64,000 nucleotides of DNA from positions 147,436,001-147,500,000 of the forward strand of contig NC_042999.1 in assembly GCF_006345805.1 (NCBI RefSeq), given 5' to 3'. Position numbers and translations under genes: made by a program. Each line of letters begins with the position of its first letter. Position 1 is the first letter of the stretch. This document shows, one piece after another, positions 1,811 through 58,972 of this stretch. Under the pieces are notes generated by a model. The model was given only the letters and a program-made list of their open reading frames with translations. It made no database searches and was not told where the DNA came from. This stretch comes from Octopus sinensis. Lineage: Eukaryota.

Positions 1811-3461
1811 AAAGTTATTCGACTGAGGTTTTGTTCTTAATGCCGGTATCTCCGTCATGTACTTTCGCAGCTGATGAATATTGTTGGTTAGGACTAATAA
1901 TTTGTAGGTAAGTGGTATTTCGTTATGCAACAATAATATACAATAAAGTATATTAACTGCGTTTATAAGTAAATACCACGTTCTACTACGTTAGCATATG
2001 CTTTTTACATTATTTTGTCAAGGTTATTTGTAAAGATATTTCATAACAATTATAGCTAGCACTGATTGTTTTCTACAAAGTTTTGTAGTTGTAAACAATG
2101 TGATCGTTGACAAAAATAGGTAATGAGTGTGTGCGCCTTTCATCAGTACTCATCTAACCCATTCTCGACTCGAAAACATTTCTTATATAGCCACCGCATA
2201 CAACGGTGTTAAGTTATTGGATATACCAATCTACATATTAAACACATTCCAGGAGCTGGTACGTAAAGACTAATGATTTGTAGGAACGTATTTTGCTATG
2301 CTAACAATATATAATAAAGTATATTAAATGCTTTTATGAGTCAATACCACGTTCTTGGTAACTTGTAGCCATTTTTATTTGACCAGTCATTTTATGTGAC
2401 GAACCATACAGTAATTCTACCAAAGAGTAACCTAGGTCTTCCTTAACAGTGGCACATCATCTCAAGAACACAATCTTCAGGGCATGTAACCCGCTATTGG
2501 AATCGAAATATGATAGTAAAGCTGTTTTCAACTGTCGATAAACGACATTCAATCATTCCGTTAGTGGTAAGCAAAGTTAAATAGGTCGGCAAAAAGACTG
2601 GATTCGAACGGACGACTCAAGTCAGTCAATATTTTCATAATAATGCACCAGATGACATTTATTCAAAATGTAAACAGGGCGATTTATAACTGCAACAAAA
2701 ACAGAAAACAAAGCAGCAACATCTTTGAACAAAGTAGAAACATTTACTTTGAATTCTTTGTGAATATGTCAATAACAGAACATAACACTAAGAATTCAAA
2801 AGTTGTATCACCACCGATATAGTTCAAGTTTTTCTTAGAAACCGACATAACACGAAAAAGAAATAATGATATACATAGAAAGGTTCGAGTGAAAGAAAGA
2901 TTTATTTTTTTTAAATAAGACATTGATGCGACGGTTATAAATGACAGTTTTTTAAACATACATTTATCTTTTCGCTATTCCATCTCTATTTTCGTTAACA
3001 CAAAACGAACAATGGTGTTAAGAAAAAGACAAAACTGAACGTTTGAACATGTATTGTTGTAGCAAATTTATCAATCTCTCCCTTTCCCTACCAATCAATC
3101 TAGCTAGCTACTTAGCTACATACATACCTAACTACTTATGTATCACAATTTCTAATAATATAGACATTCTCTTTTTTTCCTCTTTCCCTCTCTTTCTCCC
3201 TTTTCTCATGTGTTTTCCCTTTCTAGTTTTCACTGATTCCATTATCCATGTTTCATTTCTATATTTGCTTCCCTTTGTCACCTTCCATCCTCTTTCTATA
3301 TATATTTTTCTACATTAGAGCTATAACTTTTCTTAAATGGCGTAGGCCTGACACACAACGAAAACAGACAAAAACAGGAAGAATGTAATAATAATAATTA
3401 TTATTATTATTATTATTATTTTTATCATCATCATCATCATCACCATCACCATCACCATCAC

Positions 3462-3502
<41 letters not shown>

Positions 3503-3541
3503 ACAACATTATTATTATTATTATTATTATTACAATAATAA

Positions 3542-4097
3542 TTCCCTAATGCAGTACCAGGCAGTGGCTCTCGTGGCTTCTCATCTTAACCGATTGGAAG
3601 TGTTATCATGTACATTGTTTTGTCTTGGTATAAAAGATGGGCTACTGTAAATATTCTGTTCAACATCACATATTTGCTTGTCGGTTGTTTCACCTTTACC
3701 AGTTGAGCATGTCCCTTAGTGGCTGATGATATGTGCATCTCTGATCACGAGCAGAAGTAGTGGCGGAGCATTATAGCCATGTATTGAGAAGAATTCTATG
3801 GGGTTTGGATAATTCACCTCTGGAAACATGGTTGTTTAGTTCAACATACTTAAATAACCCTTAATCAAGGACATTTTCAGTGTGATGGACTACCTTACAC
3901 GAAGAAAAATTTTAACTATCCTTCACCTGCAAGTTCATGCGCTGTTAATCTTGATATGAGATCACCATGTCGCGCACATATGGTTGTGATGTATGTGCCT
4001 AGTGTACACTGATCAGACGGGGAGTCATGCTGAATATATTGCGCTTCGTATGTTTTATCCCAGTGTCATTTTGATGGCATGCACTGCTCTCATACTC
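3542..4097 (+). mobile_element. ~560-bp non-coding AAT-embedded retroposon, copy 1 (diverged)
   Basis: Colinear with copies at 36116, 40382 and 40876; flanked by AAT/AAC trinucleotide repeats. Confidence 0.85.
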
Positions 4098-4136
4098 AAC
4101 AACAACAACAACAAAAATAATAATAATAATAATAAC

Positions 4137-4180
<44 letters not shown>

Positions 4181-4203
4181 TAATAATGATGATGATAATA
4201 ATA

Positions 4204-4236
<33 letters not shown>

Positions 4237-4455
4237 TGTATGTATGTATGTATGTATGTATGTATGCATGCATGTATGTATGTATGTATGTATGTATGTA
4301 TGTATGTATGCATGAATATACATATAGTAAGACAAGAGATGTAATATCCAAGCAGACACCAAATTTCTCTATGTAAGATGCCAAAGCATGTTTCTTCAGA
4401 TAGTACGTTTAATAGTAAATTTCCTTTAACTCCCATCCGATGTTACAGATATATC

Positions 4456-21002: not shown

Positions 21003-22630
21003 TCATTTAAAATATTTTAAAGTCTTCAATTTAGCGTGGACACAAACTTGACCTAGTTCGATATGGTTATTCAATAAGTTTCTATGTTTTCTATGCTTTA
21101 GAATTTCATACGTCTCCATGGAGCATAGGTGGCAAACCAACCCTGCTATTTTTATACGGAATTGCTCTCCTAACTATTTCCCAATTAAGGTTATAATTAT
21201 TGTTATTATTTTTGAGTTCCCAGATTTTGTTTGAAAGTGTGGTGGTACCAGCTTTATGACGTAATTTAAAAGACGAGGTGGTTTTCTAACTCTAGCTAGA
21301 AAATTAATTGTACATCCAATGTAAAAATATTTGTTATTCTCCGTGGATATGGTACATTTATAGATTACGTTATTTTCCCCGCATAGACCAGGTGCCGGGC
21401 ATTTTGATTTTATTCTACACTTACACACAGGAGGAACAACTTCAGGTTTTGGATTATTCTTGGGTAGATGTCTTATGTTCCTATTATTTTGATTATCATG
21501 AGTATAATTGTCCTTATTGTTATTAATAGTTTTATAGTTGGTGCTGATATCTAAAGTATTGCTATTATTTATTGATCCTTCTGTTTCATCTTTTAGGTCT
21601 AAAGTCCTACCATGATTTTTTTTTATTATTGGTAATGTTACTATTATTGTTAGTCTTTTTATCCGACTGCATATTGTTGTTATAGATATCACTGATATTT
21701 TCATTCTCTGTATTTTCTCCATTAGCCTTATTTCTATTATTTCTATTATTAACATTATTACTTCTATTAATATCGGTATTGTTACTATTACTATTAATGT
21801 TAATGTTATTAGTCATTCTGTGGTTACTAATTTCACCCATGTTTTGATAGTTACTATTGCTGTTTTTATTGTTGGTAGTATTATTATAATTGCTATTGGT
21901 ATTCATGCTGATATTATTATTTTTATTTCTATCTTACCTGGCTAGTTTAATGTTGTTATTATTAATCTTAGCTATTAAAGTGGACATATTTGGGAGGGTT
22001 GAATAAGAAATCCTAACTGTTTTCCTAGAAATAATTCTATGATATCTATGAGAGATTGGGAAATTTTTTCTAGAATTACTTTGAATTTGTTCTGTATATC
22101 CGATTGTATCGCACAGTTGAAAGGAATATTCAGCCATAATATATCTTTTTTATTAAATTTCCTTGAACTAGAATTAGGGTTCGTAGAATTATTACTATTC
22201 ATCTCACCAGAGTTATTGTATTTATTACCATTATTTTTATTTTTATTTTTATTTTTATTTGTGTGCATCTTTGGTTTATCTACTTCGATATTATCCGAGT
22301 TACCTATGTTTTGGTCAATGCTTCTATTTGAATTGTTGGGCCTGTACGTTAGATTAGCGTTTACCGTTAATTTAATTCTACTTTTATTTCGGGCTTGGTC
22401 TGTATTGCTGCTTACGTGATTACTGATAACTTCTTTATTAGGAATACGTAAGTTTTCTTTATCAACGAATGTAATCTTTTGGTTGTATCCAGCCTTAGTT
22501 AACGCCGCATTATAATGCTCAGAATGGGAGTTAAATATATCCTTATTGGATGATAATTTTGAAATTCTTAATGAAATATTTCTTACTAAAGATTCAATTA
22601 TATTTGGGGGATGATTTGATAAAAATATAA
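21003..22630 (-). pseudogene. Frameshifted PLE ORF: RT thumb, Asn-rich linker, CxCx5Cx5C finger and GIY-YIG endonuclease
   Basis: Across frames: SNHPPNIIESLVRNISLRISKLSS; ILWLNIPFN; ISYSTLPNM; CKCRIKSKCPAPGLC; NVIYKC..YFYIGCT; TTLSNKIWELK..NWEI; CHLCSME; LLN..E...CVH; TGA stop at 21003-21005. Confidence 0.88.
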
Positions 22631-23476
22631 TTAGCAATAAATTAGCTGTTTTACTGGTCAAGGAATAATATTCTCCTCTAGTTCCTAGATGCCTGCAAAT
22701 TAAAACCAGACTTGCCGTCTACTAATTCTTCTGTATAACTAGAACCTCCTTTTTTCTTTTTTCTTTTCTCCTTTCTTTCCCTCTTTCTTTTCTTTCTCTT
22801 TTCTCTTTTTTCTTTTTCTTCTTCTTATTCTCTTTTTTCTTTTTTTCTTTTTCCTTTCTCTTCTCTTTAGTCTCCCCCCCCTTTTTGCTCCTCCTCCTTT
22901 ATTTTCTCTCTTTTCCTCTCTTTCCTTCCCTTCTGTTCTTTGCCTCTCTAGAAAGCCCTTCAGCCTTTAAAAGTTAAATAGCTACAGTCTCTTGAAAATA
23001 GCAGTAATGTGATTAATGTGGCAAATACCTAATCATATAGCAAGAATTGATATCTACCTCATTGTGTTCAACCATTGATAAATTATCGTCTGTGAATATG
23101 AAATTCCTCTTCATTTCTCTGGAAATTTACATCTACACCATTGGAAATTGTGCACCTATCAAAGGATTAATTCACCCTCTCTGTAATGCTAATAAGCAGG
23201 AATTGATACCCACCTCGTTGTGATTAGCCATGGATAAATTTGTCGTCTGTGAGTATGTAATCCCTCCTCATATCTCTGGAAATTCATATGTACACTATGG
23301 ATTAAGTCACCTTCTCTGTGATGCTATTAAAACTTTTTTTAAAATCTGTGATAAGACTGTACATCATCTTTAAAGAACTTTAATGAGCTTTGGAAATCTG
23401 TTTATGTTACTTAATTATCTACATTACTTCATGAGTATAGCCTCAACCACTAAGATGTCTAGAGAACTCACATGTA

Positions 23477-24274: not shown

Positions 24275-25089
24275 ATCCATCGCCAGATAGTGGTTCACCT
24301 ATTGCGGTTTGATATGTAAGCATATGAAGATGCCGCCGTGGCGTTGTTTTGCATTCATAATAAAAGAGATATGTATACCTTATAAATGTTTTTTTTAATA
24401 TACAGCACAGTACTTAGCAGATTTTTACCTATCACGGGTATTACGTTCCAAAAACCCCCGCGATAGTCGAGTTCATAAACATACATATATATATATATAT
24501 ATCGTCAATTTTGATGGGATCGCACTAGTTGGAGGAAAGGCAACATGGAAGGATTGTGGAGAGGTTAAAAAAATAAAGAGTGAAAATGATCATGGTACTA
24601 CTCCAGCATGACCACATCCAACTGGCTGCAACAGTTGTACAAGACATTCCAGACTGACCGCAGCTCAGCCTAGCACCACTCCCAGTAGGAGCCACACAAT
24701 CTGGATTTTGAGACCTAGAATGCCTAGTGAGTCATCCGGCCGGCGCACAGATTTGCTACATGAGTTGTATAAGAGATCCCGCTGGATAACCCATTAGTAG
24801 CTTAAGACACCTCAGTAAACATGCTTGTGGTCGAATAGGCTTGCCTTTAAGCGCAGATATAATCGGACAGGTCACATGAATGAGATTCTTTCTTGCCCTT
24901 CACTGAAAGAGGGGTTTACATCCTCCAGACGTTGCAAGCAGGTTTCAGCTCAGTGTATGCAAGACTGTTATTTTCATATTTTTTAACCAGAAGAAATTAG
25001 GTCCCTATCTTTGTCGGACGATATATATATCTATGTGTGTAGGTATGTATGTATACATGTATGTATGTATGCATGATATATGTGTAAAG

Positions 25090-25176
<87 letters not shown>

Positions 25177-25177
25177 G

Positions 25178-26112
25178 TTGCACACCTACAGCAGGAGTTG
25201 GACTCAATCTACAGATGGGCTGAGGATAATAATATGCAGTTTAATGCTGAAAATGTCCAGGCCCTGCGCTACCAGCATCCAAAACTGAATATTAAACTTA
25301 CAGGATACACCGGCCCACAGGGAATTTCAATCCCAGAGCCTAAGTCTGTGAGGGACCTGGGTATCGACATGAGTGATGATACCTCTTTCCAAGTGCACAT
25401 TACCAGGATGGCGACAAAGTGCAGACGACTGGCTGGATGGATCCTAAGAATATTCAGAACTAGAGATAAGGAAACCATGCTGGTCCTCTGGCGGACATTC
25501 GTCCTCAGCCGCCTGGATTACTGCTCACAACTATGGTCACCCACCAGTGTAAAATTAACAGCGGACCTTGAAGAAATCCAGAGAAGATTCACAAAGAAGA
25601 TCATCTCTTTGCAACAGCTCAGCTACTGGGAAAGGTTGAAACAGCTAAGACTCTACTCCCTAGAGAGAAGACGGGAGAGGTATGCAGTAATATATGTCTG
25701 GAAGATCCTGGAAGAAATTGTGCCAAATTTTGGCATTGTAAGCTACACCAATGCTAGAACGGGACGACACTGCATAGTGCCAAATATCCCAGCAATGCCA
25801 TCACGCTTCAGGACCAGCTTCTGCAACAGCCTGGGTTTCAAGGGCCCACAGCCTTTTAATATTCTCCCAAAGAGTCTGAGGAACTTGCACAAAGTAGATG
25901 TTGCAGTTTTTTTATCAAAGCTGGACATATTCTTGTCGAGAGTCCCAGATGAACCTACCCCACGGCAAGAGGTGCAAATGAGAGTAGCTATGTCAAACTC
26001 CATCCTTCACCAAGTGCCACATATTAGAGGAGGTTCTTCGTAATAACAGTGTAGCATAAAACGGCGGTGCATCAGCATGGCTACAGATCTAAGCTGAAAC
26101 AATAAAAAAAAA
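25178..26112 (+). mobile_element. 5'-truncated CR1/L2-group LINE (RT C-terminus and 3'UTR)
   Basis: Open frame [20 protein letters not shown]...VRDLGI...SRLDYCSQLWSP...LSYWERLKQLRLYSLERRRER to the stop at 26043; short UTR and A tail. Confidence 0.9.
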
Positions 26113-27529: not shown

Positions 27530-28710
27530 ATTGTTTTAAGAAAATATTGAATAGAACACAACATGTTGTCTGGTGAATAGAACACGACATGTTGTAGTCG
27601 ATTGAGTTCACTCGAGCCCAGCAAAAGTCACCAGCGGTGTCTCTCAGGGGACTGTCTTGGGCCCGATCCTCTTCATAATTTACATAAACCACCTTTCCAG
27701 TGTCGTACATCACTGCAAAGTGAAAATATTTGCTGATGACACTAAGCTCCAGCAAATCATCAATGAAGAAGCAGACCGAACTCAACTCCAGTCTGATCTA
27801 CATGCTGAGAGTCAATGGGCAGATAAAAACAAAATGCAACTGAACGAGGGAAAATTTGAGCTGATGCATTTTGGAAAGACATCCACACTAAAACAGCCAT
27901 ACTCTCTTCCTTCAGAAGAACCGCTCACAGCCTCTAACAATGTCATAGACCTGGGCGTAATTGTTCATGACAATCTCAGTTGGAGTGCCCACATCAACAA
28001 TAAGGTCGATATAGCTCGTAGAATGAGTTCCTAGATCGTAAGAACTTTCCGGTCCAGAGAACAAGGTACCATCATACCACTTTTCTCCTCCTTCGTACGG
28101 CCAAACCTCGAATACTGATGCCCACTGTTGTCTCCCCATACAAGACAAAACATCTCGAGGATTGAATCACCCCAGAGAGCACTCACTAAACGAATTGAAG
28201 GTATGACTTCTCTCGATTGTTGGGACCGCCTTAAAGCCATGACATTCTATCCTCTCCAGCGCCGCCGCAAGCGGTACATCATTTCAACGATGTGGAGAAT
28301 ATACCGCCAACTTTGCCCAAACGACCTGAACATTAGTTTCAAGGTTCATCCAAGGCTGGAACCACGGGCCATACGTCCCTTGCCCAATTCAGGGTCACAG
28401 CATATAAGTACAATGCAACATAATTTCTTTTCCTCAACAAGCCCTGCCCAATTTAACATTGTCCCGAAAGAGATCAAAGAGGAAAAGGATCCCATCAACT
28501 TTAAACGGAGTCTGGATAGATTCCTTCAAGGAATACCAGATAAGCCATCCATAATTGGATACAACTCACCCTACAAGAACTCACTACTTGAATGGATCAT
28601 AAACAAAACTTGAGTTAAACAGAATTTAGATAATCCTATCAGGTGGTGCTATTAAGTTAGATGTGGCCTGGACCAATCTTTGGTTGAAATATATCTAAAT
28701 TTATCTAAGT
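27530..28710 (+). mobile_element. Second CR1/L2-group LINE fragment (RT core to 3' end)
   Basis: SGVSQGTVLGPILFIIYIN...KIFADDTKL...DLGV...RPNLEY; stops and frameshifts; tail of atctaa(g/a)ttt repeats. Confidence 0.88.
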
Positions 28711-30020: not shown

Positions 30021-30306
30021 TATATTGGCAGGGCTTACTGCTAGGGAGTCGGCCATATGCTAGAAATAGACCATCAACGGTCAAACTACAAGGAAATTCT
30101 CTAGAGGAAAAATACAGCGAACACCAGAACCAATTTTGGCGGGCATGACAGATGAAAATTTATATAAATTTTCATCTGTCATGCCCGCCAAAATTGGTTC
30201 TGGTGTTCGCTGTATTTTTCCTCTAGAGAATTTCCTTGTAGTTTGACCGTTGATGGTCTATTTCTAGCATATGGCCGACTCCCTAGCAGTAAGCCCTGCC
30301 AATATA
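30021..30306. repeat. Perfect spacerless 286-bp palindrome
   Basis: Centre gatgaaaatttat|ataaattttcatc at 30163/30164; no mismatch seen between the arms. Confidence 0.95.
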
Positions 30307-48647: not shown

Positions 48648-49466
48648 ACTTACTTGGAAGAGTAAGCGTGGCGTTCAATCATATAGTAATATAAATAGTA
48701 TATATATGAATATATACATACGTATATGTACATACTTACATCTATACGAATATATATGCGTGTGTGTGCAAAATTGGTAACACAAACAGGACAGTGAAAA
48801 CAAACAGGAAGGGCTGCTAACCCTAACCGAGGCTCCCACGTGACCTTCGGCCATCTTTCTTACTTCTTCTAACTTGTGTTTCTTTATATCCGTTGTAGCT
48901 GGAACAAGGAAGACGTGTTCTTGTTTGTTTCCTGTTCAAGCTTGCTTTACACGTTTGCCACCACAACCTTTAGTTGAATTGGATATATCTGCCACGTAAA
49001 TAAGCGTGAATATTTCACGGAAGTGACTTATGCGCTAGCGTAAAGTGATTGGTGATATAAAATATTTATTTCAATAAGAAAACAATACATTTTTCACTAT
49101 CCAATTACTTCCGCCACTTCCACCACCACCACGTCCATTTTTACCACTTAGCCAATCCAACGAGTTATATGCTGATAGCTTGTAAAATCATGAGCTGATA
49201 TGCCCGAAACATACAAGACCATGATTTTATAAGTCTTTAAACTGCCTAGGTGATTCACCCTCAACCCAGGTGCTTGATACTGACAAGCCAAAATAATGGC
49301 GAAACATGGATGTCCATTATTCCCTGTCCGTGCTTTAATACTGGTGGCATGAAAGTTATATACGCTTTTGCAGCCACTGGAAATAACACAATGCGTATAT
49401 ATTAGCATATGTGTTTATTGATATATATATATATATACAATAATATGTTACATTACTCGGTAGTCA

Positions 49467-49529
49467 AGATAAAACTCTGAGTTTCAGATGCCGAAGTGGA
49501 AATCCACAACACCATCTCTTCGGTTATCT
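49467..49529 (-). ncRNA. Type I hammerhead variant (CCGAAGA core), copy 1
   Basis: Reverse complement of 50056-50118. Confidence 0.7.
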
Positions 49530-49573
49530 GGCTATTTGAAAACGCTATTTTTTCATAGCGTTTTCAAATAGCC

Positions 49574-49634
49574 AGATACCGAAGAGATGGTGTTGTGGAT
49601 TTCCACTTCGGCTCTGAAACTCAGAGTTTTATCT
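49574..49634 (+). ncRNA. Type I hammerhead variant, copy 2 (two 1-nt deletions)
   Basis: agata-CCGAAGA-gatg...ctct-GAAA-CTCAGAG-TT-ttatct. Confidence 0.6.
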
Positions 49635-50055
49635 TGACTACCGAGTAATGTAACATATTATTGTATATATATATATATATCAAAAACACATTGCTAATAT
49701 ATACGCATTGTGTTATTTCCAGTGGCTGCAAAAGCGTATAAAACTTTCATGCCACAGTATTAAAGCACGGACAGGGAATAATGGACATCCATGTTTCGCC
49801 ATTATTTTGGCTTGTCAGTATATCAAGCACCGGGTGAGGGTGAATCACCTAGGCAGTTTAAAGACTTATAAAATCATGGTCTTGTATGTTTCGGGCATAT
49901 CATGCTCATGATTTTACAAGCTATCAGCATATAACTCGTTGGATGGCTAAGTGGTTAAAAATGGACGTGGTGGTGGTGGTGGAAGTGGCGGAGGTAATGG
50001 GATAGTGAAACGGGTATTTGAAAACGCTATGAAAAAATAGCGTTTTCAAATAGCC

Positions 50056-50118
50056 AGATAACCGAAGAGATGGTGTTGTGGATTTCCACTTCGGCATCTG
50101 AAACTCAGAGTTTTATCT
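50056..50118 (+). ncRNA. Type I hammerhead variant, copy 3
   Basis: agataa-CCGAAGA-gatg..gtgga tt tccac..catc-t-GAAA-CTCAGAG-TT-ttatct; perfect 6-bp stem I; GUU triplet; tail continues to ~50220. Confidence 0.7.
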
Positions 50119-50232
50119 TGACTACCGAGTAATGTAACATATTATTGTATAGATAAATTTCCTCTATTTACATAATATTGAGGTCTCTTTCTTTCCTTTG
50201 TTATTTTACCGTTTTATCTATACATATATTCA

Positions 50233-52080
50233 TCTATACATATATAAACACAAGTTGCTTGTTTGGGTGTCTGTTTGTGTCAAGTTGCCGTCTACACTTG
50301 TTAACAAAATTTCGTGCAACTTTGCAAACATGTTAAGGTAACATTCAATTTGTTACTACGCTCATTGATGTTTAATATAAAGCTATAATTGGATGGCTAG
50401 GGCCCTAGAAGGGGTCCACACATATATAACCCATTTGTTTCCTTTAACACCCAAGGGATTTAACCCATTCATTATGCAATATATAATAAATGAGAAAACG
50501 TATAAATACTTCTCCGATTTATTACAGAAGTTGTAACAAAACGTGTGGAATATATTTTCGTTTGCAAAACAGCTAGCACTAGAATCGAAATCAAATCTTC
50601 CATTTTCCCATTAGCTAGCAAATGCTATGGTTCGTAATTAAAAACAATAGATATCCTTAGTGGTGTATTTCATCGGCACGTGACATTTAACCTCCTGCTC
50701 GCACGAAAACTACGGTAAAGCATTCAATAATAGATCCACTTATTTCAGTTAGTGACTTATTCACGAATATACCATAAATGACGATGCCTTTCGTGTCACT
50801 TCAGGCAATTGACAAGCGCTGCATGAAGAACTGTTCTGTTTTAGATAAATGCACTGTCATCACAAATGTTACACTCTGAAAGGAAACCTTCTTAATTTAT
50901 GTTGATTAATATTTTGTAAGGATGTACTCTATGTAACAGCCAACCACACAAGCAGAGAGAAATCGCCATTTATCTATGAATATTATTGCAATCTGAACTG
51001 TCCTCATGCAGTTCACACGCTGTTTACATGCATGGATGTTTTCTTAATTGATATTGATTGCTGTGTTGATGTTTCCTTAATGTACCCTTTAGTTTTCTTT
51101 AACGGCCAAGGCGAAATAACTGATCTAAAATCCCTCATTTTTCTTTTCCACCCACTGCTCGTCAGCAGTCATAAAGGTCACACGCTGTTTACATGTAGGA
51201 ACAATTTCTTAATTTATATTGATGGTTGTGCCCCGCGAAAAAGATCAAATCTCAGTTCTCGATGTGTGCGTGCACGAAAACTGCAACTAAAGCGATCACA
51301 GGTAATAAATGCTTCCCACTATCGATGTAAACCGTAGCGCCCAGCACACATTTTACCACGTTTCTCATCACATATAGTGCTCTATTTAAACTAACACTTA
51401 AATCGATATTTCAACTAATTTAAGTTGTATAAATGGTTACTCACAAGTAAAACAATTTATCTATTTATTACTTAAGAGACAGTAACAGAAACAGAAACTC
51501 GTCTTGCTGCGGCCAGAACAGTCAGTAGAAGGACAAGGCAAAATGAGACGGCAGTGGAGAGACAAGCTCGCCTTGCTGCAGATAGAACAGCCTATAGAAG
51601 GGCAAGACCGTCCGAGACAGCAGTTACAACAGAAGCTCGACTTTTTGCGCATAGACTATATCAAGAAAGTGCATGGCAAACAGAGATGACAGTGGGGAGA
51701 CAAGCTCGCCTAATTGCACAGAGAGTATACCAAGAAAGAGCAAGTCAGGCAAAGACATAGAGAAGCTCGCCAAGCTGCAGACAGAGAGTCACACCGACTC
51801 ACGACACAAGTCGAACACTCCTTCGAAAGAAGTCTAAGACAGACACTCGACAGGACTGCGCGAGCATCAAACAACCAGAACTGACTTCACGATTTGAGTG
51901 TACGTAACTTATTTGGATTTCCTAAAAACAAGAACATATGTAAGACATTTGGGTATTCTCTGTAAATCCACAAAAACCGTTTTAAGGGCTATATACTTTG
52001 GATTGTCTTTATTGGATTAGCGAAACAATTACTGGATACGTCAGGTAGTATTAATGGGAAATAACGGATACGTCAGGTAG
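50233..52080 (+). mobile_element. Internally deleted Helitron retaining STPR-repeat coding sequence
   Basis: A|TCTATACATATATAAA start; duplicated ...ggatacgtcaggtag|T end; PRKRSNLS segment and four 23-aa ETxxxxxxRL repeats. Confidence 0.65.
51476..51760 (+). pseudogene. STPR (23-residue repeat) domain remnant
   Basis: ETVTETETRLAAARTVSRRTRQN / ETAVERQARLAADRTAYRRARPS / ETAVTTEARLFAHRLYQESAWQT / EMTVGRQARLIAQRVYQERASQA. Confidence 0.75.
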
Positions 52081-55305: not shown

Positions 55306-55355
<50 letters not shown>

Positions 55356-55357
<2 letters not shown>

Positions 55358-56185
55358 GCACTTAATGGGAAATACTGGACTAAACTAAATGCAAAAGAAA
55401 TAGACAGAGAAAAATCCCAGCAGAGGTTGGGAAGCTCAGGATTCAAAGCAGGGACTGAAGGATTTTTAATTACAGCACAAGACCAAAGCCTCCCCAAAAG
55501 AAATTGCGAAAAACATATAATGAAACGAAACATAACATGTAACTGCAGAATATGTGGAGATGGACAAGAAACAATAATTATATTTTCTGTGGCTGCCCAG
55601 TCCTGGCTAAGAAGAATATATTCACAGACACGACAGAGTTGGGACCTACATACACTGGAACCTATGCCAAAACTATGGAATAACAACATAGAAAGATGGT
55701 ATAAGCACACGCCAGAAACGGTCACAGAAAACGAGAAATCAACCATACTTTGGGATATGCCAATACACACAGATACAGAAATTAACACCAATAGGCCAGA
55801 TATAGTTATCAGAGATCATGAAGGAAAACAATACTTTCTAATTGAGGAATTAATACCAGCAGATGACAACGTTTTGTTAAAAGAAATGGAAACTTTCAAA
55901 ATACAAAAACCTGGAAATAGAGGTAACTCGAATGTGGAATCCAAAAACAGAAGCAATTCCAATCATAGTTGGCGCATTAGGTATGATAAAAAATCTTCAG
56001 ACAAATACATAACAAAAACACCGGGACTTACAAATATATATAACAAACAGACAATTGCATTACTGGACACTGCACACATTCTACGCAAAGCACTTTCAAT
56101 ACAGTAACTATAAGAGCATCACAGCAAACCACAGCACATACCCATGGCACACAGAGCTGGGCTCAGTAGTGAAGTGAAAGCACGC

Positions 56186-56188
<3 letters not shown>
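55356..56188 (+). mobile_element. 5'-truncated R4/Dong-like LINE (Zn knuckle, RLE, 3'UTR)
   Basis: TEGFLITAQDQSL..CRICG...ILWDMPIHTD...NRPDIV...TIALLDTAHILRKALSIQ*; lies between (AAT)n arrays. Confidence 0.9.
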
Positions 56189-56228
<40 letters not shown>

Positions 56229-56229
<1 letters not shown>

Positions 56230-58972
56230 AACATGTAAACATGCGTGGTACATTACGATCCATCAACACCAGATCATCCCCGACCCCAAACACTATGTAC
56301 AAAGGAACTACGAAGAAATTAAATGCCACCGATATTATTCAACCCAAGAATAACAATCGAGCGGTACGTACTTTAAACTTACAACACAAAAGGTACGAAA
56401 AACTACACGTGCAAAATAATGTGACAACAGAAATGAACGGACCGGTACCCTACGAAAATGACGACCGTCAAAATAATGGGCCGGACGTTGTTCCTCATGT
56501 CCCGCAAATAAAACCCAAAAGACATAAATGGACACGTGAGGAATACATTTCTATCTTACAAGCATACTTCACAGCAGTGCTCTACCCAAAAAATGAAAAC
56601 ACAACAACACATACATATAAAATATGGAAGGAAAATAATATAAATATAGACTTGGATACAGCGATGAACCCTAATAAATTAGCTAACGGACGAAGATACA
56701 TTCTCAAAGCAAAGAAATATCAGAAATAGAAATAGAACATCTAAAAGAAAAAATACACCAGGAAAATGTAGATAGAAGCCACACAACAATGCCCAATAAT
56801 ATAAACACTGAAACAGTAAAACACAAAGACAAACGTAACATTCCCAACAAACACGATGTAAACAACGAAGGGGAGCCTAATGATTATGATAATATAAAAA
56901 GTAAAATAATCAAAGAACTGAAAACCACAGAGCTCAAAATGGACCACCGACCATACCTCCCAAGAATCAAAATAGACGAAACAACAACACCAATTATAAA
57001 CAGCATAAACCTAGCCGTCAAGGAACTAATAGCCACTGAAACAAAAAGCGATATCACTGAGCTAAATGACTTAATATACGCAGCAGCCACTGCAGCCACA
57101 AAAGAAGCTGGATACTCACTCTAACCCATCCAAACAGGAGTACCACCACCCAAACAAACCCTGTGGATAAATAACATCCAAAGCAAAATACAAAAAATGA
57201 GAAAAGATCTGTCGATTCTTAATGAAATCAGCAGACAATCAACGCTACTGAGCAACAAAAGAAAACAAAAATACTCCGCAAATATAACATCACAGAAAAA
57301 GATTGACCTGAGATAAAAGAAAAACTGAAGCAAGATATCCTTGCCAAAGCACAAAGGATCCGCCGGTACGAGAAACGCCAGCGCTTCTTTGAACAAAACA
57401 AAAAGTTCAACTCCAACCCCAAAAAGTTCTACCAAGAACTTGGCAAAAATAAAATAGAGATCACTGCAGCACCAACGGCAGAAGTGGAAGAATTCTGGAG
57501 AGAAATATGGTCGGCGAACGAACAACCAAAAAAAAGGAGTATCAAAATAACAAACTCGGCATCTGAACAACTTTGGACCCCCATAACAACTGAAGAGGTC
57601 ACCCAGGCACTGCAAAGACTAAGCAACTGGAGGGCACCTGGGCATGACAAGATCCCCAACTTCTGGTTGAAATATCTAACAGAATTGCACAAAAAGCTGG
57701 CTGAAAACTTTAACAACATACTAGCAGAGCCAGAGACAATGCTTGAATGGCTCACGAAGGGGAAAACCATCTTAATTCCCAAATCAAATGAGACAGCAAA
57801 CCCAGAAAACTACAGACCGATAACCTGTCTCCCTACAATGTTCAAGGCATTTACTGCAGTGATATCGCAAAGGTTGAACAAGCACCTGGATGAAAACAAA
57901 CTGTTCCCAGAAGAGCAGAAAGGATGCCGCAAAGGCTCATATGGCTGTAAAGATCAACTAATGATTAATAAAGCCATAACGGAAGACAGCCATAGAAAGA
58001 AGAAAGGCCTCAGTATGGCCTGGATCGACTACAAAAAGGCGTTTGATAGCTTCCCCCACACATGGATCCTCGAAACACTAGCCATTAACAAAGTAGCACC
58101 AACCAACAATCATAAAATTCATAGGGCACTCTATGAATAAATGGCAAACAGTGCTACAGCTCCAAACAAAAGAAGGACTCATGAAAACCAAAGACATCCC
58201 CATTAGAAGAGGAATATTCCAGGGAGACACGCTCTCTCCACTCCTTTTCTGCTTCGAACTGTCACCTCTATCTGATATGCTAAATAGAACTGGATGCGGA
58301 TATAAATGTTACGGCAAAACGATCAGCCACCTTTTATATATGGATGCCCTAAAACTATAAGCTGCAATGACAAACAGCTGGAAACACTATTAAAGACAGT
58401 TCATGGATTTACCAAAGAAATAGATATGAAATTTGGATTAGAAAAATGCGCCAAAGTAACCATGAAAAGAGGAAAACTAGTTAAGAGTAGCAACATCACA
58501 CTAGATAAAACCAATGAAATAAAAGAATTAGACCAAAGCCAAACTTACAAATACTTAGGAATCCATGAACTAGATAAGACACAACACACACAAATGAAAG
58601 AGAAAATAAAAAAAGAATATTATAGACGAGTTAGATCAATACTAAAAACAGAGCTCAATGCTAAAAACAAGATAATAGGTATTAACACTTTAGCTGTCCC
58701 AGTTATAAGTTACAGCTACACTTAACTGGACACTAAATGAACTGACCAAAATAGATAGGAAAACAAGAAAAATAATGACAGGGTCTAGGATGCATCACCC
58801 AAAATCTGACATAGAAAGACTATATATACAACGTATAGAAGGTGGTAGAGGCCTTATACAACTGGAAAACTACTATAAAATAACCACTATAGGACTGCAA
58901 AAATATCTATTTCAGAAGGAAGGAAAACTGATACAAATAGCGGCAAAACACGAGCAAAACAAAAAACTGTGC
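56229..58972 (+). mobile_element. 3'-truncated R4/Dong-like LINE (N-terminus and RT), frameshifted
   Basis: RHKWTREEY; WRAPGHDKI; YRPITCLPT; EEQKGC; WIDYKKAFDS; GIFQGDTLSPLLF; LLYMDA (YMDD decayed); YKYLGI; GGRGL. Confidence 0.92.

What the first reader, a model, noticed from the sequence alone, without database searches (positions are those of the whole stretch)
49092..50220. Three-copy hammerhead variant locus with a hairpin-centred 920-bp palindrome
Seen: X-(TA)-P(minus)-hairpin-P(plus)-(TA)-X(inverted)-hairpin-P(plus with tail). P contains a hammerhead with U4C (CCGAAGA), an extra U before GAAA and a CTC-A-GAG stem III that can pair fully only between two copies. The 16-bp hairpin tatttgaaaacgctat/atagcgttttcaaata at the palindrome centre recurs at 50015-50052 with the loop flipped (tttttc versus gaaaaa). 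Copies 2 and 3 are tandem on +, ~480 nt apart, the spacing expected for a dimer-cleaving, retrozyme-like unit that here includes captured flank X. Inference: snap-back priming at an element-encoded hairpin copied neighbouring DNA. The many 1-nt indels between arms could also reflect poor polishing or an assembly artefact.
Basis: partly seen in the sequence, partly recalled or inferred. Interest (0 to 1): 0.72.

Follow-up and report, generated by a model that had tools for sequence, protein, structure and literature searches.

The report
Back-to-back Penelope ends, doubtful third copy
This is a back-to-back pair of ends from a common jumping gene with a predicted self-cutting RNA motif, a well-known arrangement; the extra mirrored stretch and third copy that made it look special are likely an assembly error, or else a one-off local rearrangement.

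Summary
The sequence is as described: a 935-bp imperfect palindrome and three copies of P. P is the 3' end (pLTR) of a young, protein-coding Penelope-like element with Hydra-clade motifs. Head-to-head pairs in (TA)n are its normal insertion form (53 of 72 sites; tail on one arm in 51). The central hairpin is not element-encoded: intact copies lack it and the fold point varies between sites. U4C marks a large subfamily (2930 matches versus 2284 for canonical U4); activity is untested. Only the 483-nt block P2-TA-X'-hairpin is unusual. It differs from the left arm by 12 indels and 3 substitutions. Short-read contigs from three samples carry left-arm letters at all 7 tested differences, and contigs run unbroken across X's left edge. 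The X'-hairpin junction itself could not be tested. Best reading: ordinary insertion plus a fold-back assembly artefact (0.55); otherwise a real template-switch duplication. A second locus (L055) has an inverted flank copy with ageing-type substitutions, so real cases probably exist. A retrozyme unit is not supported. This scan has already reported such Penelope palindromes many times in this genome.

The parts
49092..49420 (.). X: single-locus left flank containing decayed hammerhead-like relics of older repeats
   Evidence: Only two full-length matches in G000, both here. Short-read contig identical over 49016-49407 (run X1).
49275..49325 (+). Decayed hammerhead-like motif inside X (core CTGACAA, i.e. 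G8 changed), unrelated to P
   Evidence: Motif scan; short pieces of X match older repeats at 69-92%.
49421..49437 (.). (TA)n target at the left end of the insertion
   Evidence: Sequence; (TA)n ends are typical of the family.
49438..49548 (-). P1: tail-less arm of the Penelope-like pLTR, with hammerhead motif at 49467-49529
   Evidence: 100% identical to P3 over 110 nt.
49533..49570 (.). Head-to-head junction hairpin: the loop tttttc is the element's own upstream sequence; inferred 3-nt microhomology join
   Evidence: Intact copies have no hairpin here and other sites have other loops.
49555..49663 (+). P2: tail-less pLTR copy with two 1-nt deletions, in stems I and II; part of the doubtful block
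   Evidence: Alignment; 3 of 88 complete copies have two or more gap openings, and P2 is one of them.
49664..50010 (-). (TA)n plus X': inverted, indel-rich copy of the left flank; likely assembly artefact or template-switch duplication
   Evidence: Arms differ by 12 indels and 3 substitutions; contigs of 4 of 4 runs show left-arm letters at 7 of 7 differences in 49692-49944.
50011..50052 (+). Junction (cggg) and second hairpin: reverse complement of the central junction, entered at a TATT microhomology
   Evidence: the read tool skipped this stretch, so the junction is untested.
50037..50149 (+). P3: pLTR with hammerhead motif at 50056-50118 (core 50062-50068, extra T 50099, predicted cut after 50112)
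   Evidence: family ORF upstream in intact copies.
50150..50215 (+). Family 'tail' extension, present on one arm only
   Evidence: Matches other copies; on one arm in 51 of 53 pairs; tail-flank junction bridged by an identical 131-nt contig in run X1.

Best explanation
The locus is a back-to-back pair of 3' ends of a young Penelope-like retrotransposon inserted in a TA repeat, and the extra 483-nt block (copy 2, TA, inverted flank, second hairpin) is likely a fold-back assembly artefact that arose at this palindrome. [quoted passage not shown] Inferred mechanism of the insertion: the endonuclease cuts both strands of (TA)n; each end primes reverse transcription, one at the tail end and one at the internal site; the two truncated cDNAs join through a few bases of microhomology. 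Inferred origin of the extra block: a path that crosses from P1 to the opposite strand inside the inverted repeat, runs back through the loop, P and X, and re-enters 16 nt before the loop. This flips the first loop with no further step. The true allele would be X-(TA)-P(minus)-loop-P(plus)-tail.
For: Family: RT plus GIY-YIG ORF directly upstream of P in L018/L019/L020 and L065/L066; Hydra motifs (against PMC8557442 section 11). 53 of 72 sites are head-to-head pairs and 51 of these have one tail; the tail is on the shorter arm in 22 and the longer arm in 13, which simple self-copying of one cDNA cannot give. Both-strand extension and two RT start sites bounding the tail are shown in vitro for another PLE (PMC11167929). 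Artefact: arms differ by 12 indels and 3 substitutions in 464 columns, whereas 5 of 6 control arm pairs and L055 have more substitutions than indel events and the sixth has 3 and 3. The left arm matches a contig with 0 differences over 392 nt. In 4 of 4 runs (3 samples) the contig on X' carries left-arm letters at 7 of 7 differences. Contigs bridge X's left edge unbroken in runs X1, X3 and X4 (3 samples, 3 studies). Run X1 also holds the exact tail-flank junction, so that sample carries the insertion; its X contig (depth 8.2) and junction contig (8.41) have like depth, which is only a weak hint.
Against: The diagnostic X'-hairpin junction was skipped by the read tool (49956-50070). Contigs show presence, not absence, and no run is known to be the assembled individual. 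Indels alone would also arise if a real second arm were badly polished; control pair L069 has 7 one-base indels in 445 columns. In run X3 one contig enters X at 49110 with 42 letters that were not shown; a length allele of the local repeat seen in run X7 is the simpler reading, but this was not checked. L055 shows the same kind of inverted flank copy with ageing-type substitutions. A plain fold-back read does not by itself explain the re-entry that skips about 440 nt. Foldback reads were common in nanopore genomic data but near absent in PacBio HiFi (PMC12870357), and this assembly's platform is unknown.
Confidence: 0.55

Rival explanations
1. The block is real and arose after insertion by DNA template switching (replication or repair) at the inverted pLTR pair: one switch by homology inside P, one by microhomology. 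This duplicated 330 nt of flank in inverted orientation in one lineage; the indels are polishing errors.
For: It predicts the flipped loop and a third copy that replicates the site-specific junction. L055 has a 760-nt inverted flank copy with 15 substitutions (10 transitions, 5 at CpG) and 3 indel events. Inverted duplications and triplications beside retrotransposon insertions are described for LINE-1 (bioRxiv 10.1101/2024.12.14.628481, passages).
Against: Contigs from three samples cross X's left edge unbroken, one of them in a sample that carries the insertion's right junction. The event would have to be private to the assembled haplotype. By my reading of the flagged hits, only this site among the 72 had an adjacent inverted flank copy (L120 not assessed, L113 unresolved).
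Confidence: 0.3
2. The block is real and was made during the insertion itself: the element's RT or end repair snapped back or jumped onto flank DNA and captured X between two direct pLTRs.
For: One inverted plus two direct pLTRs with captured host DNA, and 5' palindromes on pLTRs, are published for Adineta vaga (PMC3846280, passages). In L055 the inverted flank interrupts the element almost exactly at the P/tail boundary, resuming at tail position 14.
Against: All carriers should then have X', yet sample S1 has the insertion's right junction and an unbranched X contig; later loss by recombination between P2 and P3 could rescue this. Snap-back from the left flank predicts loop gaaaaa at the centre, not tttttc. 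The third copy repeats a junction that must already have existed.
Confidence: 0.12
3. P2-X'-P3 is a functional retrozyme-like unit that is transcribed, cleaves as a dimer and yields a 484-nt linear or circular RNA.
For: Spacing of 484 nt between predicted cut sites; palindromic stem III suits dimer cleavage (PMC4209133).
Against: X has no other copy. P2 lacks a base in each of stems I and II. In the lowest-energy fold of 49560-50130 neither hammerhead forms; in the monomer the hammerhead fold lies 3.5 kcal/mol above the minimum. U4C is reported to lower activity considerably in vitro (PMC3088659, passage).
Confidence: 0.03

Closest known systems
Hydra clade of C-terminal-endonuclease Penelope-like elements (Craig et al. 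2021, PMC8557442; passages, section 11 and a search of supplementary file S1 read)
   Same: [quoted passage not shown]
   Different: The paper calls Hydra hammerheads canonical; this subfamily has C at core position 4 and an extra base before GAAA. The tail here is about 66 nt, not 30-40. No tree was built. Their hammerhead file S2 was not among the held supplements.
Adineta vaga Penelope insertions with one inverted and two direct pLTRs and captured host DNA (Arkhipova et al. 2013, PMC3846280; passages read)
   Same: Same order of parts as assembled here: inverted pLTR, direct pLTR, foreign DNA, direct pLTR; palindromes at the inverted junction.
   Different: In the passages read, the captured DNA is not described as a copy of the adjacent flank. 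Here it is a mirror of the immediate flank with an error-like indel pattern.
Poseidon_Ac of Anolis (Frangieh et al. 2024, PMC11167929; parts 1-2 of 4 read)
   Same: Two RT start sites bounding an optional tail; both strands cut and extended; hammerhead mutants do not block insertion in vitro, which fits a U4C subfamily amplifying.
   Different: Different clade; there the hammerhead overlaps the ORF start.
Non-LTR retrozymes (bioRxiv 10.64898/2026.07.22.740005; part 1 of 5 read)
   Same: Type I hammerhead with tandem spacing of a few hundred nt; derived from PLE pLTRs.
   Different: No dispersed or tandem family of the P-X unit; only one of the two tandem motifs is intact.
Foldback long-read artefacts (PMC12870357; passages) and LINE-1 insertions with inverted duplication of flank (bioRxiv 10.1101/2024.12.14.628481; passages)
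   Same: Both give an inverted copy of neighbouring DNA.
   Different: They are the artefactual and the real precedent; the data here favour the first but do not settle it.

Membership tests
EN+ Penelope-like element | ORF with RT and GIY-YIG endonuclease | tested here: met
   RT motifs (YKDD) and KYVG upstream of P in L018/L020/L065; Pfam GIY-YIG only weakly, E 0.026, below cut-off. No complete ORF was read in one copy. The window locus itself holds only pLTR pieces.
EN+ Penelope-like element | pLTR in tandem or inverted arrangement with an optional tail | tested here: met
   53 of 72 sites head-to-head, 51 with one tail; partial tandem in L054.
Hydra clade | RWK and DKT motifs in the N-terminal part | tested here: met
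   Both found in the L067 frame, which lies directly upstream of family-matching RT sequence.
Hydra clade | CxCx5C linker; CxxC and CxH near the C-terminus; CCHH absent | tested here: met
   L065 ORF: CSCRNKELC, CGLC, CPH; no CX2-5CxxC; no cysteine in the GIY-YIG core by inspection.
Hydra clade | Insertion into (TA)n | tested here: met
   Most copies listed end in TA runs.
Hydra clade | Placement in the RT phylogeny | not tested
   No reference proteins were fetched and no tree was built.
Type I hammerhead ribozyme | Core C3 U4 G5 A6 N7 G8 A9 / G12 A13 A14 A15.1 / U16.1 H17 | tested here: inconclusive
   All positions met except U4 (C) plus one extra base before G12. The sister subfamily has canonical CTGAAGA in the same frame.
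Type I hammerhead ribozyme | Three stems supported by covariation | tested here: inconclusive
   89.7% of cells paired versus 36-57% when slid, but 0 pairs with changes on both sides and no excess over shuffles; 12 of 15 rows were picked by a pattern that fixes stem III.
Type I hammerhead ribozyme | Self-cleavage, as monomer or dimer | not testable with these tools
   Needs an in vitro assay.
Non-LTR retrozyme | Repeated unit with intact hammerheads in at least two consecutive copies, present as a family | tested here: not met
   X only at this locus; copy 2 damaged.

The most novel reading that the evidence does not exclude
Insertions of this Hydra-clade family occasionally mirror hundreds of bases of neighbouring host DNA between their own ends, at insertion or by later template switching at the inverted pLTR pair. 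They would then be a recurring germline source of local inverted duplications; L055 would be an aged example and this locus a fresh one. Separately, a subfamily with a U4C hammerhead has amplified to thousands of copies, a natural test of whether PLEs need ribozyme cleavage.
Probability: 0.3. Interest if true: 0.45.

Novelty: new member of a known kind. Interest (0 to 1): 0.2.

Why it matters
Mostly as a caution: a striking three-copy ribozyme locus reduces to the usual Penelope stump plus a block that short-read contigs do not support. If the block is real, it and L055 record strand switching at PLE insertions, a step of the PLE cycle that is still unexplained. The paired U4 and C4 subfamilies offer a ready comparison for whether hammerhead cleavage matters to PLE mobility.

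Tried and rejected
Rfam scan: no hammerhead hit, only hairpin-driven miRNA matches below their gathering scores. X as the internal part of a non-autonomous element: rejected, since only two full-length matches exist, both here. Palindromes adjacent to other P copies as mirrored flank: L068, L110 and L119 carry their own hammerhead-like motifs, so I read them as other families sharing the TA target; L058, L059 and L145 are unexplained palindromes, not copies of the opposite flank; L113 and L135 are unresolved. Such palindromes were rare at background points (1 of 920). U4 copies as CpG decay of C4: rejected, because the opposite-strand decay product has 115 matches against 2284. Covariation test: uninformative. 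Read cover: none on 49950-50070, but the tool skipped 49956-50070, so this is no evidence; little or no cover on the right arm is likewise not used. Expression: no RNA holder listed. The 49541-50021 joint fits the family's intact sequence and is not diagnostic. Pfam Ntox35 hit (E 0.015, below cut-off) is treated as noise. PMC9977147 passages held nothing on flank duplication by PLEs. PMC5785218, on hammerhead variants of PLEs, is not held and was seen only as a citation; it may already describe this core. Searches for print on PLE-linked inverted flank duplication and on U4C found no direct report, but the library is partial. The sequence look-up of earlier findings returned nothing.

Full report
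1. Observation. The window shows a palindrome at 49084-50018 (94.7% over 950 columns, 30 gap columns) and three copies of P at 49427-49573 (-), 49530-49674 (+) and 50012-50158 (+). The 16-bp stem recurs with its loop reversed. Copies 1 and 3 carry a type I hammerhead-like motif with core CCGAAGA, an extra T before GAAA and a palindromic stem III. Copy 2 lacks one A in stem I and one in stem II. Rfam has no hammerhead hit here.

2. What P is. A 32-nt P pattern has 415 exact matches. [quoted passage not shown] The motifs RWK, DKT, CxCx5C, CxxC and CxH are those given for the Hydra clade (PMC8557442 section 11). No tree was built. The 66 nt after P3 are the family tail.

3. Normal insertion form. 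I took one record for each of the 72 sites behind the first 100 of the 415 matches. 53 are head-to-head pairs, this locus included; 51 have the tail on one arm and 2 on neither. Among pairs with unequal arms the tail is on the shorter arm in 22 and the longer in 13. The other 19 had no adjacent pair by my rule; some records were short and L120 gave no BLAST hit. Inverted truncated copies and an optional tail are textbook for these elements (PMC8557442 passages; PMC3846280 passages). Because the tail can be on either arm, two separately primed cDNAs joined by microhomology fit better than self-copying of one cDNA. This is inference, in line with the two start sites and both-strand extension shown for Poseidon_Ac (PMC11167929 parts 1-2).

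4. The hairpin is a junction. 14 of 34 copies listed continue upstream into the element with no hairpin there. The other 20, at 10 sites, have junction hairpins with varying loops, and only this locus has the 6-nt loop. Fold points run from element position 1224 to 1640, with 27 of 53 in 1501-1535. The loop tttttc is the element's own sequence. So the second hairpin is a copy of this site's own junction read from the other strand.

5. The hammerhead. 84 of 88 complete copies have C at position 4. Genome-wide the C4 17-mer has 2930 matches, the U4 17-mer 2284, and the CpG-decay control 115, so both states are subfamilies. The diverged sister copies mostly have the canonical core and a C as the extra base; that U4 is ancestral is inferred. 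Stems stay paired but show no compensatory change. The constrained hammerhead fold is -13.6 kcal/mol against -17.1 for the minimum. U4C is a known natural variant with lowered in vitro activity in a viroid (PMC3088659 passage). PLE hammerheads cleave weakly and as dimers (PMC4209133 parts 1-2). Activity is untested here.

6. The extra block. X is single-locus DNA. The assembled order equals a two-copy allele in which the path crosses strands inside the inverted repeat, returns through loop, P and X, and re-enters 16 nt before the loop at a TATT microhomology. That explains the flipped loop. Snap-back from the left flank would leave gaaaaa at the centre. The arms differ by 12 indel events and 3 substitutions in 464 columns; of six ordinary arm pairs, five have more substitutions than indels and one has equal numbers. 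Short-read contigs match the left arm (0 differences over 392 nt in run X1) and bridge X's left edge in runs X1, X3 and X4. Laid on X', contigs of 4 of 4 runs from 3 samples show left-arm letters at 1 substitution and 6 gaps. Run X1 also has an exact contig across the tail-flank junction. A second entry into X would normally break such contigs; that is inference, and contigs cannot show absence. The X'-hairpin junction was skipped by the tool, and one X3 contig enters X with 42 unshown letters.

7. A second case. L055, one of the 34 records, reads flank Y, P(minus), P(plus), inverted Y (about 760 nt), tail remnant, TA. Its arms differ by 15 substitutions (10 transitions, 5 at CpG) and 3 indel events in 950 columns, which looks like ageing of a real duplication. 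It was not tested with reads. It keeps the real-rearrangement rivals alive. Precedents exist for captured DNA between pLTRs (PMC3846280), for inverted flank duplications at LINE-1 insertions (bioRxiv 10.1101/2024.12.14.628481 passages) and for foldback read artefacts (PMC12870357 passages).

8. Verdict. The element and its head-to-head form are a new member of a known kind, already noted many times in this genome by the scan. The extra block is probably an artefact (0.55), else a post-insertion template switch (0.30) or capture at insertion (0.12). A working retrozyme unit is unlikely (0.03). Supplementary file S2 of PMC8557442 and PMC5785218 could not be seen and may already list this hammerhead core. 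Interest 0.2.

Noticed in passing
L055 (G000:C5:126091605-126097718), locus 2231-4330: Same family with about 760 nt of left flank copied in inverted orientation between P(plus) and a tail remnant; CpG-type substitutions suggest a real, aged duplication. Related repeat copies face each other on both sides.
   Followed up: partly
window 21174-22718 (-): Broken frames of another Penelope-like element with a CxCx5C linker and YIG motif, so probably also Hydra-type.
   Followed up: no
window 49180-49230 and 49275-49325: Two decayed hammerhead-like motifs about 100 nt apart inside X; short matches to older repeats elsewhere.
   Followed up: partly
window 49106-49126: Length allele of the local CCA/CCG-rich repeat in run X7 (joint with 21 extra letters).
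   Followed up: no
window 51491-51785: 69-nt repeats encoding arginine-rich peptide repeats; the likeness to Helitron N-terminal repeats is recalled and untested.
   Followed up: no
window 30121-30206: 86-nt palindrome that scores equally on both strands as a miRNA-like hairpin.
   Followed up: no
window 24907-26043, 27606-28613, 55307-58725: Fragments of LINE-type reverse transcriptase frames; type recalled from motifs, not tested.
   Followed up: no
L068 4982-5419, L110 2165-2310, L119 2055-2219: Palindromes with their own hammerhead-like motifs sit in the same TA run as a P copy, suggesting several families reuse one target.
   Followed up: partly
L054, L135, L138, L056: Repeated insertion units side by side: a 1.3-kb partial tandem (L054) and two head-to-head pairs in a row or nearby.
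   Followed up: no
L077, L102 and others: A C4 sub-branch with a 3-nt deletion in stem II (about 18 of 88 copies) that, by inspection, can still pair the stem.
   Followed up: partly
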